Below, one piece after another: positions 59,233 to 62,961 of a DNA stretch of 64,000 bases. The notes under the pieces are model-generated. The model saw nothing but the letters and a program-made list of their open reading frames with translations. It did no database searches and was not told where the DNA came from. Origin of the DNA: Bdellovibrionota bacterium (lineage in GTDB: Bacteria; Bdellovibrionota_C; UBA2361; CALJRW01); NCBI GenBank assembly GCA_041740355.1, contig JBGSMD010000020.1, positions 1 through 64,000 of the forward strand, written 5' to 3'. Each line of letters opens with the position of its first letter. Within the stretch, counting starts at the first letter, position 1. The position numbers were made by a program, and so were the translations under genes.

Positions 59233-60507
59233 TTAAAAATTGCTTTCTAGAAGTTCCAGAATCTCAGCAAATTGAGGTCGCTCTCCGTGAACTAAATTTA
59301 AACATCTATCCATCAAAGTCTTTAGAAATGGTGTTGCTACTTCCTTGGTTTCACCAAGAAGATCCTGAATTAAATATCCAAAGGCACGCACTTCTATTTG
59401 TTCCCTCTCAATTGAGTTCCCACGATCATAAAATGACGCCGCACCAAAATCTCCCAAGAAGCACTCCCCAACATTTGTGGTTAAAATATTATGGGCATAT
59501 AAATCACCATGAGCAATTCCCCGCTGATGTAAATGATCTGCCGCCGAAGCAATATCTTTTAAAACTTGCAGAATAAATTCTAAGGACAAACTTGTCTCAG
59601 GTAAAAAGGTATCTCTAGTGCAACTCTCAAGGCTTGGTGGTAAGCCTAGCGATCGATAACTTGCGGGTATTAGCTTTAAAACCAATCCGGCATTTAGATT
59701 GCCATTTTCTGAGAATTGCCCATTAACTGGTATAATTTTTGGATGGGACTGAGCCGCAAGACAGGCTTTAAGATCATCAATTATATATCCATCACTGGTC
59801 ATTGTCCCTCGATACTTTTTAACAGCAACAGGCTCTTGATATCCCGCAATGGTCGCCTTCCAGACTTCACAGGAAGGACTTTCTCCAATTTTCTCCGTTA
59901 AATTAACTTGATCCCCATAAATAATAGGAACATTAATCAGTGCTAGATCTTTATTGTTAAAACAATTTCCTGAGTCTGCATACCAAGCTAATTTAGGTAA
60001 CTTAAAAAGAAAGCTCGGCTCTTGCGAAAGTTTATTTGCGGAAAGTCTAATTAATTCTAATTCTTGGCAAAGCTCCAGTTCTTTAGGAATTGATTGCAAA
60101 TCATTTCCCGTCAAAGCTAATTTTTTTAAATTTTTTAATTTACCAATAGATCTTGGTAAAGCTTGCAAATGATTGTCCGTTAAGATTAACCATTTCAAAT
60201 TTTCAGGCAACGCATCTTCCGCAATTATTTTTAGCTGACAGGACTTAAAACCTAAAACTTCGAGTTTGGTGCAATATTTTAAAACAGCTGGAATGTCTGT
60301 AAATAGATTCTTAGAGAAAAAGGCTATTTTAAGTTCTTGAAATTCTGTAATTGCCTCTGGCAAGCTAGTCAGCAGTCCTTGAGACATATCCAACACTTCA
60401 ATTTGATCAGCATAATCAAGTAATTCTAAGGGGAAATAACTCGCATTCCTAAGAGTTAGAGTTTTTGATTTAAGATCATAAAAGTGAAAAAAGGGTATCT
60501 CCTGCAT
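59233..60507 (-). CDS. Leucine-rich repeat plus Ser/Thr-type protein kinase
   Basis: LRRs (LKWLILTDNHLQALP), VAVK, HGDLYAHN and DFGAA motifs. Confidence 0.88.
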   Translation of the reverse strand: MQEIPFFHFYDLKSKTLTLRNASYFPLELLDYADQIEVLDMSQGLLTSLPEAITEFQELKIAFFSKNLFTDIPAVLKYCTKLEVLGFKSCQLKIIAEDALPENLKWLILTDNHLQALPRSIGKLKNLKKLALTGNDLQSIPKELELCQELELIRLSANKLSQEPSFLFKLPKLAWYADSGNCFNNKDLALINVPIIYGDQVNLTEKIGESPSCEVWKATIAGYQEPVAVKKYRGTMTSDGYIIDDLKACLAAQSHPKIIPVNGQFSENGNLNAGLVLKLIPASYRSLGLPPSLESCTRDTFLPETSLSLEFILQVLKDIASAADHLHQRGIAHGDLYAHNILTTNVGECFLGDFGAASFYDRGNSIEREQIEVRAFGYLIQDLLGETKEVATPFLKTLMDRCLNLVHGERPQFAEILELLESNF

Positions 60508-60638: not shown

Positions 60639-61325
60639 GTGCTTGTGCAAAATTATCAAATTCTAATTATCGATGACGATCTTTCCTTTACTAATTTGGT
60701 GAAGATTCGTTTGGAGAAAATTCTTAAGAATATTAATGTACAAAACTTTGAATCTTTGGCCTCGGCTGAAAAATTCCTAAAAAAAGCCGATCCCAACTAT
60801 GACCTTGTCGTAATCGATCAACATCTTCCTGATGGACTTGGCAGTGACTTTATCAAAAAAGGACTATTTGGCTCTACGGCCGTTCTATCGATGAGCTCTG
60901 ATCAAGCGATAGAAATTACAGCTAAATCTATCGGTGCAGGCGCAACTTTTTTCCTTCAGAAAGACGATCTTACGAAGCCTTTGTTTGAATATTTAATTCA
61001 TGGCCTTATTCAACGGAATCAAATCGCCAAGGAACTGAGTGATACCAATAAAAAACTGGTCAAACTAGATACCATCAAAAAAATGATTTCAACATTTAAA
61101 CATGAAATTAATAATCCGCTAACAGCAATTTTTGGTGCTTCATTTATTCTTAAACGTAAGTACGAGCATGAGAAAGAGCAGATGGAAGCAATTAGTTTGA
61201 TTGATATTAGCTCGAAAAGAATTAAGGAAATTATTGAAAGCATCGATCGCAATCCCGACTTAACGGAGGAAAGCAAATCCAATCAAAATGTATATAAAAT
61301 TCCTGGTGATAAACCTTGGAAATAG
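60639..61325 (+). CDS. Receiver domain fused to HisKA (DHp) without an ATPase domain
   Basis: IIDDD, VIDQHLPDG and FLQK receiver motifs; H-box KHEINNPL; protein ends without N/G boxes. Confidence 0.85.
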   Translation: MLVQNYQILIIDDDLSFTNLVKIRLEKILKNINVQNFESLASAEKFLKKADPNYDLVVIDQHLPDGLGSDFIKKGLFGSTAVLSMSSDQAIEITAKSIGAGATFFLQKDDLTKPLFEYLIHGLIQRNQIAKELSDTNKKLVKLDTIKKMISTFKHEINNPLTAIFGASFILKRKYEHEKEQMEAISLIDISSKRIKEIIESIDRNPDLTEESKSNQNVYKIPGDKPWK

Positions 61326-61671: not shown

Positions 61672-61701
61672 AAAAAAAAACGACCCAATGGGTCGTTTTT
61701 T
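61672..61701 (-). terminator. Rho-independent (bidirectional) terminator
   Basis: A9-cgaccc-aat-gggtcg-T6, directly downstream of the RRM-S18 gene. Confidence 0.85.
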
Positions 61702-61723
61702 AAATTCCAGTAACTCCTACGAA

Positions 61724-62248
61724 TTACTTAGAGTATGCCATCAAACCTAAGCTCTGAGCTCGCTTAACAGCTTTCTTCATTTTTCTTTGGTTGTATGAAG
61801 AAAGGCCAGTGTACTTTCTAGAAAGTAATCGCCCACGCTCGCTAACAAATCTTGCTAGAGCATTTACATCACGATATGAAAGTTCTTTAGTTGGGTCCTG
61901 AACATAAGGATCCATTCTGCGATTACGCTTAAAAATTGGAACTCTTTGAATCGGTGGAAAATATTCTTGCTTAGTAGTTTCACGAACTTCAGCAGGTTTA
62001 CCTTTATCAAAGGCAACTTTCATTGGTCGACTATTGATAACTCTTTCGTTCAAAGCTTTAACAGCTTTCTCGGCGTCATCAACATTTTCCATTTCGATGA
62101 AAGCGAATCCACGAGAACGTTTTGTTTCACGGTCAACAGCGATGACAACGCTTAAACATGGACCAAACTCTTCAAACATTACTCTCAAATCGTCGTTAGT
62201 AACTTCAAAATCAATATTGCTTACAAATAATCTTCTTCTTTTTTCCAT
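61724..62248 (-). CDS. rpsR: Fusion of an RRM domain and 30S ribosomal protein bS18
   Basis: RNP2 LFVSNI and RNP1 RGFAFIEM, then SYRDVNALARFVSERGRLLSRKYTG...QRKMKKAVKRAQSLGLM (bS18 core); ATG at 62248 preferred. Confidence 0.88.
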   Translation of the reverse strand: MEKRRRLFVSNIDFEVTNDDLRVMFEEFGPCLSVVIAVDRETKRSRGFAFIEMENVDDAEKAVKALNERVINSRPMKVAFDKGKPAEVRETTKQEYFPPIQRVPIFKRNRRMDPYVQDPTKELSYRDVNALARFVSERGRLLSRKYTGLSSYNQRKMKKAVKRAQSLGLMAYSK

Positions 62249-62275
62249 TGCATTAATTAACAAAATAGCTCGCGA

Positions 62276-62304
62276 ATATTAGTTAATCTGAGGTTTTATG
62301 TCAA
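62276..62304 (-). promoter_or_regulatory. Sigma70 promoter of the RRM-bS18 gene
   Basis: Minus strand TTGACA-17 nt-TAATAT. Confidence 0.7.
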
Positions 62305-62631: not shown

Positions 62632-62961
62632 ATGAGTACTAGCAACGCCTATAAGAGATTTGGATTTGAAGATGATGATTCCTTTTCGGAAGCCAAGTCA
62701 GAGGTAAAACCGGAAAGAAACCTGCTTGCAGCAGTTCTTTCTAGAGCAATTTGTGATGCTTTTGGAACGGCACATTGTGAGCGACACGTTGTAAGAAGCG
62801 CACGTCGTTGGATTTTTAGCCAATTAACACCTAAAATTCCTTTTAGTTTTGCTTGGGTTAGTATTCATTTAGATCTTGAACCAACTGAACTTCAAAATAG
62901 CCTTCGTACTTACGAAGATAATCCCGATGACATCCAAGACCGCCTTGCTCTTTTAAAATAG
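62632..62961 (+). CDS. Conserved-looking small helical hypothetical protein
   Basis: GGAG ribosome-binding site; PERNLLAAVL..AI.D, A..W..S and FSF.W....L pattern recalled from deltaproteobacterial hypotheticals. Confidence 0.7.
   Translation: MSTSNAYKRFGFEDDDSFSEAKSEVKPERNLLAAVLSRAICDAFGTAHCERHVVRSARRWIFSQLTPKIPFSFAWVSIHLDLEPTELQNSLRTYEDNPDDIQDRLALLK

What the first reader, a model, noticed from the sequence alone, without database searches (positions are those of the whole stretch)
61672..62304. Stand-alone RRM-bS18 fusion: a ribosomal protein carrying its own ssRNA-binding domain
Seen: one ORF joins a complete RRM (RNP2 LFVSNI, RNP1 RGFAFIEM) through a ~30-aa linker to a complete cysteine-free bS18 core. 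It has its own TTGACA-17-TAATAT promoter and intrinsic terminator, and no rpsF, ssb or rplI neighbours. Established: bS18 sits on the 30S platform near the mRNA exit and anti-Shine-Dalgarno region, is normally encoded with rpsF, and bS6:bS18 also acts as a translational repressor. I know of no described RRM-bS18 fusion. Inference: the RRM is tethered where 5' leaders are recruited and could give S1-like or transcript-selective initiation, either in all ribosomes or as a swappable paralog making specialised ribosomes. Many genes here have A/U-rich leaders without a clear SD.
Basis: partly seen in the sequence, partly recalled or inferred. Interest (0 to 1): 0.88.

Follow-up and report, generated by a model that had tools for sequence, protein, structure and literature searches.

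The report
RRM-tagged ribosomal protein bS18
The only gene for small-subunit ribosomal protein bS18 in this bacterium, and in almost all of its uncultured phylum, carries a built-in RNA-binding (RRM) domain, so its ribosomes probably all bear an extra RNA-binding arm beside the site where messenger RNA leaves.

Summary
One ORF on the minus strand (61727-62248, 174 aa) joins a canonical RRM to a complete bS18. It is the only S18 gene in this 97%-complete genome. rpsF and rplI sit together elsewhere without rpsR. All 116 of 124 phylum genomes with an S18 hit have exactly one; 104 are verified as one-frame fusions. So it is the constitutive bS18, not a swappable paralog. The RNA-binding RNP1/RNP2 residues are conserved and the spacer is disordered and variable, 15-52 aa. 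That should place an RRM at the 30S platform next to the mRNA exit, but this placement is inferred, not shown. It fails across the phylum, where SD use ranges from background to about two thirds of ORFs. One lineage has deleted the RRM. Some public records truncate the ORF to an 82-aa S18. Nine literature searches found no description of the fusion. A highly conserved 109-aa gene of unknown function neighbours the fusion in 94 of 114 genomes. Structure and complex predictions could not be run.

The parts
61727..62248 (-). Coding sequence of the RRM-bS18 fusion protein (174 aa; stop codon at 61724-61726)
   Evidence: ORF list and translation. Pfam RRM_1 plus Ribosomal_S18. It is the only S18 hit in the genome.
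62021..62230 (-). RRM domain (residues 7-76), with RNP2 LFVSNI and RNP1 RGFAFIEM
   Evidence: PF00076 match at E 7.0e-23 at these coordinates. G47 and F48 are invariant; F8, N11 and F50 are at least 90% conserved in 37 sequences.
61964..62008 (-). Low-complexity spacer (residues 81-95). Relatives have 15-52 residues here, rich in G/S/R/E/D.
   Evidence: Mean pairwise identity is 0.25, against 0.50 for the RRM and 0.62 for the S18 core. Lengths are listed.
61727..61963 (-). Complete bS18 moiety: a conserved pre-S18/basic N-terminal tail (residues 96-112, FPPIQRVPIFKRNRRM) and the core (residues 113-174)
   Evidence: Residues 101-172 align to residues 4-75 of solved chain 5myj_AR, and F106 aligns to residue 9. 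PF01084 matches at 61739-61888. TIGR00165 scores above its cut-off.
62276..62304 (-). Sigma-70-like promoter TTGACA-17-TAATAT. It implies a leader of about 20 nt, AU-rich and without an SD.
   Evidence: Scan (10 of 12 matches; 5 sites found against 3.8 expected, so weak alone). Upstream SD duplex energy is +1.5 kcal/mol.
61672..61701 (.). Bidirectional intrinsic terminator: stem 61681-61695 (CGACCC/GGGTCG), with an A9 run on one side and a T6 run on the other
   Evidence: RNA fold of the minus strand gives a hairpin plus U9, z = -4.98. The consensus scanner did not list it.
62632..62961 (+). Conserved neighbouring gene (109 aa, no known family), divergently transcribed here. It may be functionally linked to the fusion.
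   Evidence: No Pfam, NCBIfam, PHROG or PDB match. Present in 122 of 124 phylum genomes. Within about 2.2 kb of the S18 domain in 94 of 114 genomes (hand comparison). 0 of 61 sister-phylum genomes match.

Best explanation
This is the organism's one and only bS18. In an ancestor of the whole phylum, rpsR left the rpsF-rpsR-rplI operon and became fused behind an RRM gene. The phylum is uncultured; record titles read Bdellovibrionota, Bdellovibrionales, Oligoflexia or Deltaproteobacteria.

The product has three parts: an N-terminal canonical RRM, a short disordered spacer, and a full bS18 including its basic N-terminal tail.

Shown: the architecture; that it is the single copy; that it is conserved across the phylum; that selection acts on the RRM's RNA-binding residues.

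Inferred: the bS18 part assembles with bS6 on the 30S platform as usual. Every small subunit would then carry an RRM on a flexible tether in the platform cavity, beside the mRNA exit channel, the 16S 3' end, bS1, uS2 and bS21.

Most likely mechanism (inference): the RRM binds single-stranded RNA of the mRNA 5' leader as it approaches or leaves the exit channel. It would act as a built-in docking or standby site working alongside bS1, whether or not a Shine-Dalgarno sequence is present.
For: Architecture. RRM_1 plus Ribosomal_S18 lie in one frame. The S18 part aligns to solved bS18 chains from their residue 4/9 to the end.

Sole copy. There is 1 S18 hit in a 97.27%-complete genome. rpsF is followed directly by rplI with no S18 between them, both here and in 30 of 30 loci from 21 genera.

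Phylum-wide. 116 of 124 genomes have exactly one S18 hit. 104 of these are verified as one-frame fusions, and 9 more lie in unchecked open frames of 190-224 aa.

Presence in metagenomes. 115 protein clusters at least 170 aa long carry both Pfam domains.

Selection. The RNP1/RNP2 aromatic residues are conserved. RRM identity is 0.50, the S18 core 0.62 and the spacer 0.25. 30 of 33 listed differences to a roughly 90%-identical contig are at third codon positions, and the ORF has no indels.

Single origin is not rejected. The tree constrained to hold all fused RRMs together has a log-likelihood 4.27 higher than the free tree, p-AU 0.556.

Geometry from the literature. [quoted passage not shown] The E. 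coli bS18 N-terminus orders on mRNA contact, and the chloroplast bS18c N-terminal extension projects into the platform cavity (bioRxiv 10.64898/2026.07.03.736309, passages).

Precedent. A free cyanobacterial RRM protein, Rbp3, co-purifies with ribosomes: 41 ribosomal proteins were enriched (PMC12232666, abstract and section 11).
Against: SD use varies widely among genomes that all carry the fusion, from 0.14 to 0.66 of ORFs. The RRM therefore does not track one mode of initiation.

One lineage (G048) has cleanly lost the RRM yet keeps the spacer and S18. There are 4-5 similar RRM-less proteins in metagenomes. The RRM is therefore dispensable in at least some backgrounds.

RRMs on ribosomes can bind rRNA instead of mRNA, as cS22 does.

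An internal Met before the S18 part is present in 11 of 18 other-order sequences. This leaves room for a shorter isoform in those lineages, though not in this window.
Confidence: 0.45

Rival explanations
1. The RRM binds the ribosome's own RNA. The target could be the pyrimidine-rich 3' tail of 16S rRNA (the anti-SD) or a platform helix. It would act as a structural element or as an anti-SD mask, doing the job that the bS21/bS18/bS6 pocket does in Bacteroidia.
For: This genome keeps an intact anti-SD (...GGAUUACCUCCUUU) but uses SD rarely. In Flavobacterium the 3' tail lies along a groove formed by bS6 and bS18 (PMC7797042, passages). The two RRMs of chloroplast cS22 bind 16S h6 and h10 (bioRxiv 10.64898/2026.07.03.736309, passages). 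cS22 is among the best PDB sequence matches of this RRM (5x8p_v, E 1.8e-20).
Against: SD use differs greatly within the phylum while the fusion is constant. 12 of 26 ribosomal-cluster genes here have SD-like sites, so pairing appears to be in use. 0 of 5 mappable Bacteroidia pocket residues of bS18 are the same here, by coordinate mapping onto 7jil_w. Against E. coli 16S there are only two indels, in h6 and h17, far from the platform. An RRM-less lineage exists.
Confidence: 0.2
2. The RRM serves regulation or assembly rather than translation itself. It might bind its own mRNA, replacing the lost S6:S18 operon feedback. It might chaperone 30S platform assembly. It might work with the conserved 109-aa neighbour as a two-gene module.
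For: rpsR has left the rpsF operon. No rpsF-leader motif or any other Rfam family was found in either locus. The 109-aa gene lies next to the fusion in 94 of 114 genomes (hand count). It is more conserved than the fusion itself, at 73% mean column identity. It was not found in the sister phylum (0 of 61). In one genus a strong GAGGAG sits upstream of the fusion gene. That recalls the proposed rpsR autoregulation in Bacteroidia (PMC7797042, passages).
Against: The leader implied by the promoter in this window is only about 20 nt, with no SD. That leaves little room for a regulatory structure. Nothing links the neighbour to RNA or to ribosomes. The complex prediction could not be run.
Confidence: 0.12
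3. Two products come from one gene: the full-length RRM-bS18, and a short canonical bS18 made from an internal start. Only some ribosomes would then carry the RRM.
For: NCBI gene calls of 82 aa start at an internal Met (the MGYF... motif). P0280 is exactly the last 82 residues of the 191-aa ORF in G051, and P0295 is exactly the end of the G052 ORF. That Met is present in 11 of 18 other-order sequences.
Against: The Met is replaced by I, L, T, N or P in 7 of 18 sequences. It is absent at that position in this window, which reads QRVPI. The 82-aa calls are automatic annotations, not evidence of expression.
Confidence: 0.06
4. It is a swappable paralog that makes specialised ribosomes.
For: bS18 has C+/C- paralog pairs in other bacteria (PMC13000457, introduction passage). 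The S18 part here is cysteine-free.
Against: There is exactly one S18 hit in this genome and in each of the 116 phylum genomes that have any.
Confidence: 0.02
5. It is an artefact: a frameshift, a mis-assembly, or a degenerate S6-like domain mistaken for an RRM.
For: One poor MAG (G114, 800 contigs, 84% complete) has the two halves in different frames. bS6 has an RRM-like fold (recalled). bS6-bS18 fusions exist in the sister phylum.
Against: 104 independent genomes show the same one-frame ORF. An independent contig has no indels. The domain matches RRM_1 at E 6.8e-23. It has no BLASTP similarity to this genome's own bS6 at E up to 100, and bS6 is encoded separately.
Confidence: 0.01

Closest known systems
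Canonical bacterial bS18 (rpsR; PF01084, TIGR00165)
   Same: The C-terminal 70-75 residues are a complete bS18. They score above both curated cut-offs and align to solved bS18 chains over nearly their full length. It is the single copy in the genome.
   Different: About 100 extra N-terminal residues (RRM plus spacer). The gene is monocistronic and lies away from rpsF and rplI. There are no cysteines in the S18 part.
Chloroplast bS18c with its N-terminal extension
   Same: An N-terminal addition to bS18. [quoted passage not shown] Its length varies, 19-55 residues (bioRxiv 10.64898/2026.07.03.736309, passages).
   Different: The chloroplast extension is a repeated short basic/aromatic motif, not a folded domain. 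Here a whole RRM is appended.
Plastid-specific ribosomal protein cS22 (PSRP2)
   Same: An RRM-bearing component of a bacterial-type 30S subunit. It is a strong sequence match to this RRM (5x8p_v, E 1.8e-20).
   Different: cS22 is a free-standing two-RRM protein at the foot of the 30S that binds 16S h6 and h10. The protein here has one RRM covalently joined to bS18 on the platform.
Free single-RRM proteins of bacteria (cyanobacterial Rbp1-3; NCBIfam NF058537 Rbp_regulator)
   Same: The same domain type (NF058537 gives 85.4 bits). Rbp3 co-purifies with ribosomes (PMC12232666). This genome also has a glycine-rich stand-alone RRM protein.
   Different: The NF058537 score is below its cut-off of 100. 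Those proteins are not ribosomal proteins and are not fused to any.
bS1
   Same: A flexible single-stranded-RNA-binding ribosomal protein at the mRNA exit side.
   Different: bS1 uses OB/S1 domains and anchors via uS2. This genome keeps a normal six-domain S1, so the RRM is an addition, not a replacement.
bS6-bS18 fusion proteins in the sister phylum
   Same: Another fusion at the N-terminus of bS18. It occurs in 12 of the 98 sister-phylum genomes that have an S18 hit. Two of the twelve were confirmed by Pfam.
   Different: There the partner is the neighbouring ribosomal protein bS6, joined by read-through of adjacent genes. Here the partner is an unrelated RRM, and bS6 stays separate.

Membership tests
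bS18 (Ribosomal_S18 / TIGR00165) | Scores above the curated family cut-offs | tested here: met
   PF01084 65 bits against 21. TIGR00165 54.5 bits against 38.75.
bS18 (Ribosomal_S18 / TIGR00165) | Full-length alignment to bS18 chains from solved ribosomes | tested here: met
   Residues 101-172 align to residues 4-75 of the 81-aa chain 5myj_AR. 80 PDB bS18 sequences match at E up to 0.001.
bS18 (Ribosomal_S18 / TIGR00165) | Serves as the genome's bS18, with no other copy | tested here: met
   1 hit in the genome. 1 hit in each of 116 phylum genomes.
bS18 (Ribosomal_S18 / TIGR00165) | Physically part of the 30S subunit, paired with bS6 | not testable with these tools
   Needs ribosome purification or cryo-EM. 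bS6 is encoded separately.
RRM (PF00076) | Scores above the family cut-off, with RNP1 and RNP2 motifs and their aromatic residues | tested here: met
   80.8 bits against 20.7. G47 and F48 are invariant; F8 and F50 are at least 90% conserved.
RRM (PF00076) | Beta-alpha-beta-beta-alpha-beta fold | not tested
RRM (PF00076) | Binds single-stranded RNA | not testable with these tools
   Needs a binding assay.
NCBIfam NF058537 Rbp_regulator (free bacterial RRM regulator) | Score at or above the curated cut-off of 100 bits | tested here: not met
   85.4 bits.
Alternative (C+/C-) bS18 paralog system / specialised ribosomes | Two rpsR copies in one genome | tested here: not met
   A single S18 hit per genome.
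Bacteroidia-type anti-SD sequestering platform pocket | bS18 pocket residues (F. johnsoniae K37, S38, I40, F50, N56) conserved | tested here: not met
   By the ungapped coordinates of the 7jil_w match (chain 35-92 to query 14-71), these map to Q117, D118, T120, A130 and S136, so 0 of 5 are the same. That alignment itself was not printed, so this is a mapping by coordinates only.
Bacteroidia-type anti-SD sequestering platform pocket | Genome-wide lack of SD despite an intact anti-SD | tested here: inconclusive
   The anti-SD is intact. SD use is low genome-wide, yet 12 of 26 ribosomal-cluster genes have SD-like sites, and relatives vary widely.

The most novel reading that the evidence does not exclude
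The fusion is a 'Rosetta stone'. It would mark the 30S platform next to bS18 as the working site of bacterial single-RRM proteins in general, such as the cyanobacterial and Bacteroidota Rbp proteins. In this phylum that association has become covalent. Every ribosome would then carry an RRM arm that captures mRNA leaders. The arm may act together with the phylum-specific, highly conserved 109-aa neighbour, as a new ribosome-associated module.
Probability: 0.15. Interest if true: 0.85.

Novelty: new variant of a known kind. Interest (0 to 1): 0.66.

Why it matters
Core bacterial ribosomal proteins rarely acquire whole folded domains. I know of no other core bacterial ribosomal protein that carries an RRM (from recall, plus nine empty literature searches).

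Here an entire phylum appears to have rebuilt the platform/mRNA-exit corner of its small subunit. That region governs mRNA recruitment, Shine-Dalgarno pairing and bS1 action.

The case offers natural controls. There are lineages that deleted the RRM. There are relatives with high and low SD use. There is a sister phylum with bS6-bS18 fusions.

It also gives a concrete hypothesis for where free bacterial RRM proteins act.

Finally, it exposes an annotation problem. Some public records call only an 82-aa S18 from an internal Met, which hides the architecture.

Tried and rejected
There is therefore no fold, no PDB fold search and no docking on the 30S.
- Complex prediction of the fusion (A3) with the 109-aa neighbour (A4) was never queued. 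No verdict was obtained.
- Sequencing runs: no RNA holder is listed, so nothing can be said about expression.
- The profile search of 1.84 billion representatives was swamped by multi-RRM proteins. Only 3 of the best 150 were single-stretch, full-length fusion types, so it says little about spread.
- Rfam, on both the rpsF locus and the fusion locus, gave no credible family.
- The terminator consensus scan listed nothing. The hairpin was found only by folding.
- The idea that the RRM compensates for a loss of platform rRNA was rejected. There are only h6 and h17 deletions against E. coli.
- The idea that the RRM is a displaced bS6 was rejected.
- The idea that the fusion tracks SD-poor genomes was rejected. 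That test used small samples of 24-35 ORFs per genome and a crude start-calling method.
- The RRM tree has too few columns to resolve origins. The free tree puts the fused RRMs in 3 groups, and 0 of 200 bootstrap trees have them as one clade. Even so, the single-clade constraint is not rejected.
- Supplementary files of the papers were not read. They may hold bS18 alignments that bear on the pocket-residue comparison.
Full report
WHAT IS THERE

On the minus strand, an ORF runs from the ATG at 62248 to the stop at 61724-61726 and encodes 174 residues.
- Pfam finds RRM_1 at residues 7-76 (E 6.8e-23) and Ribosomal_S18 at residues 121-170 (E 6.6e-18).
- The NCBIfam S18 equivalog TIGR00165 scores 54.5 bits against a cut-off of 38.75, over residues 107-172.
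- Against PDB sequences, the RRM matches PABP, nucleolin and chloroplast cS22.
- Residues 101-172 align to residues 4-75 of an 81-residue solved bS18. With the S18 part alone as query, F106 aligns to residue 9 of that chain.

The bS18 moiety is therefore complete, including its basic N-terminal tail. The real spacer is only about 15-20 residues. The single cysteine, C31, lies in the RRM.

SIGNALS AROUND THE GENE

The region yields 5 such sites against 3.8 in shuffles, so on its own it is weak.
- The terminator scan listed nothing. Folding shows a 6-bp GC-rich hairpin followed by U9, about 25 nt after the stop (z = -4.98). It is flanked by an A-run, so it can terminate in both directions.
- The implied leader is about 20 nt, AU-rich and without an SD (+1.5 kcal/mol).

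IT IS THE ONLY bS18

The genome has 3.27 Mb in 74 contigs and is 97.27% complete. It has one S18 hit, which is this ORF.
- rpsF and rplI lie side by side on another contig with nothing between them.
- The same rpsF-rplI junction without S18 is seen in 30 of 30 loci, from 30 genomes and 21 genera.
- bS1 is a normal six-domain ORF of 570 aa.
- bS21 is present.
- A second RRM gene is an ordinary glycine-rich RRM protein at a contig end.

SPREAD ACROSS THE PHYLUM

The held phylum has 124 species genomes in a single class. Of these, 116 have an S18 hit, and each has exactly one. The 8 without a hit are 55-90% complete.

I verified both domains in one frame in 104 of the 116:
- 78 same-order and 12 other-order genomes by a single full-length match;
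- 3 by two matches in one open frame;
- 10 more by an HMM built from A1, run on fetched loci;
- 1 by ORF listing.

Nine further genomes have S18 in open frames of 190-224 aa that I did not check individually.

There are three exceptions:
- G114, a MAG of 800 contigs, has the two halves in overlapping frames.
- G049 is cut by a contig end.
- G048 has an S18 of 107 aa that keeps the spacer and the last residues of the RRM's final strand but has lost the rest.

Other points on spread:
- Metagenome proteins with both Pfam domains form 115 clusters of at least 170 aa.
- Every record title I saw for members is a MAG labelled Bdellovibrionota, Bdellovibrionales, Oligoflexia, Deltaproteobacteria or simply 'bacterium'. 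I saw no cultured isolate.

OUTSIDE THE PHYLUM

- A Silvanigrellaceae MAG has an S18 in a 97-aa open frame.
- In the phylum of a 'Bdellovibrionales' MAG, 98 of 101 genomes have an S18.
- 79 of those lie in open frames of 135 aa or less.
- 7 lie in frames of 141-161 aa. None of these holds an RRM next to S18.
- 12 lie in frames above 200 aa. These are bS6-bS18 fusions. Two were tested by Pfam; the other ten share the same N-terminal pattern by eye.

I therefore found no RRM-bS18 outside the window's phylum in the genomes searched.

SELECTION AND ORIGIN

Thirty-seven sequences were aligned.
- G47 and F48 of RNP1 are invariant. F8 and N11 of RNP2 and F50 of RNP1 are at least 90% conserved.
- Mean pairwise identity is 0.50 for the RRM, 0.62 for the S18 core, 0.42 for the pre-S18 motif and 0.25 for the spacer. 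The spacer ranges from 15 to 52 residues and is rich in G/S/R/E/D.
- A roughly 90%-identical contig from another study spans the whole ORF without gaps. Thirty of the 33 listed differences inside the ORF fall on third codon positions, including 9 of 10 in the RRM and spacer part. This is my hand count; 76 further rows were not shown.
- An RRM-only tree of 78 rows and 81 columns is poorly resolved. It splits the fused RRMs into three groups. A tree constrained to keep them together is no worse: its log-likelihood is 4.27 higher, p-AU 0.556. A single ancient fusion is the simplest reading but is not proven.
- The RRM shows no similarity to this genome's bS6.

WHERE THE RRM SHOULD SIT (INFERENCE)

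- They state that the E. coli bS18 N-terminus becomes ordered when it touches mRNA during initiation (bioRxiv 10.64898/2026.07.03.736309).
- They state that the chloroplast bS18c N-terminal extension projects into the platform cavity (same preprint).

An RRM on a disordered tether of 15-52 residues attached to that N-terminus would therefore hover at the platform and mRNA-exit corner.

TESTING THE SD IDEA

- The 16S rRNA ends ...GGAUUACCUCCUUU, so the anti-SD is intact.
- I used a crude pipeline: non-overlapping ORFs of at least 120 codons, first ATG taken as start, and duplex energy to the anti-SD at or below -4.5 kcal/mol in positions -20 to -3.
- In this genome 14.7% of upstream windows pass, against 8.0% of control windows (2364 ORFs; energies computed on 1500 of them).
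- A 50-kb E. coli control gives 74.5% against 11.8% (51 ORFs). This genome is therefore SD-poor.
- In the ribosomal protein cluster, with starts set by homology, 12 of 26 genes have SD-like sites, against 26 of 26 in E. coli. SD pairing seems to be used for a subset of genes.
- Ten other fusion-bearing genomes, sampled at 2 x 20 kb each, range from 0.14/0.14 and 0.17/0.07 up to 0.66/0.14 and 0.66/0.31.
- Ten sister-phylum genomes lie at 0.25-0.54.

The fusion does not track SD poverty.

TWO FURTHER CHECKS

- The bS18 residues that form the anti-SD pocket in Flavobacterium are not conserved here: 0 of 5 by coordinate mapping.
- The 16S rRNA differs from E. coli only by deletions in h6 and h17, away from the platform.

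ANNOTATION PITFALL

Four NCBI-named '30S ribosomal protein S18' calls of 82 aa begin at a Met inside the conserved pre-S18 motif.
- P0280 is exactly the last 82 residues of an uninterrupted 191-aa RRM-S18 ORF in G051.
- P0295 is exactly the end of the G052 ORF.

Public annotation thus hides the architecture in some records. That Met is present in 11 of 18 other-order sequences and absent in this window. An internal-start isoform is possible in some lineages but is not a general feature.

A CONSERVED COMPANION

The 109-aa ORF at 62632-62961 (+) has no Pfam, NCBIfam, PHROG or PDB match.
- It is found in 122 of 124 phylum genomes.
- It has 73% mean column identity, with long invariant blocks and invariant C41, C49 and H52.
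- Comparing the coordinates by hand, it lies within about 2.2 kb of the S18 domain in 94 of the 114 genomes that have both. In 16 genomes the two are on different contigs, and in 4 they are 4-34 kb apart.
- It is divergent from the fusion gene in the window's order. In other orders it lies directly upstream on the same strand.
- It was not found in 61 sister-phylum genomes.
- All names given to its 120 best relatives are 'hypothetical protein'.

Whether it binds the fusion protein could not be tested.

LITERATURE

Nine full-text searches found no description of an RRM-bS18 fusion.

I read passages of PMC7797042, PMC13000457, PMC10123108, bioRxiv 10.64898/2026.07.03.736309 and PMC13640635. I read the abstract and section 11 of PMC12232666. 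PMC5737520 I saw only in a search listing. Supplements were closed.

VERDICT

This is a phylum-wide, constitutive, RRM-bearing bS18. The 'SD-substitute' flavour is weakened. An mRNA-leader docking role at the exit channel remains the most likely mechanism, but it is untested.

Noticed in passing
window 62632-62961 (+); orthologues in L017-L023, L142-L159, L348: A 109-aa protein of no known family. It is more conserved than the ribosomal fusion itself: 73% mean column identity, with invariant C41, C49 and H52. It is present in 122 of 124 phylum genomes. It lies next to the fusion gene in 94 of 114 genomes (hand count). It was not found in 61 sister-phylum genomes.
   Followed up: partly
L240:554-1174 (-), L242:526-1137 (-), and ten further loci L241, L243-L251: bS6-bS18 fusion proteins of 203-250 aa in 12 of the 98 sister-phylum genomes with an S18 hit. 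Two were confirmed by Pfam as Ribosomal_S6 plus Ribosomal_S18.
   Followed up: partly
L348 832-1407 (+) against protein P0280; L145 570-1136 (+) against P0295: Public gene calls named '30S ribosomal protein S18' are 82 aa long and start at an internal Met of an uninterrupted RRM-S18 ORF of about 190 aa. The RRM therefore goes unannotated in those records.
   Followed up: yes
L154 624-947 (+) (G048); proteins P0273-P0276, P0281: A lineage whose bS18 has lost the RRM but keeps the spacer and the last residues of the RRM's final strand. The gene sits directly downstream of the conserved 109-aa gene. This is a natural RRM deletion.
   Followed up: partly
L017, L020, L022 (genus g10), just upstream of the fusion ORF: A conserved strong SD (GAGGAG, -8.2 kcal/mol) precedes the fusion gene in this genus. 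The window's own gene has none. 8 of 30 loci pass the -4.5 kcal/mol threshold.
   Followed up: no
window 59233-60507 (-) and 60639-61325 (+): A leucine-rich-repeat plus Ser/Thr/Tyr-kinase-like protein, and a small hybrid with a response-regulator receiver and a HisKA domain but no ATPase domain.
   Followed up: no
G000:C2:44353-44706 and loci L279-L306: bS6 is only 20-38% identical between families of the phylum. That is far less conserved than the RRM-bS18 protein (33-62%) with which it should pair.
   Followed up: no
Control genomes: Among 14 named control genomes, RRM_1 is found only in Synechococcus elongatus and Bacteroides thetaiotaomicron. Both belong to lineages I recall as using few SD sequences.
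   Followed up: no
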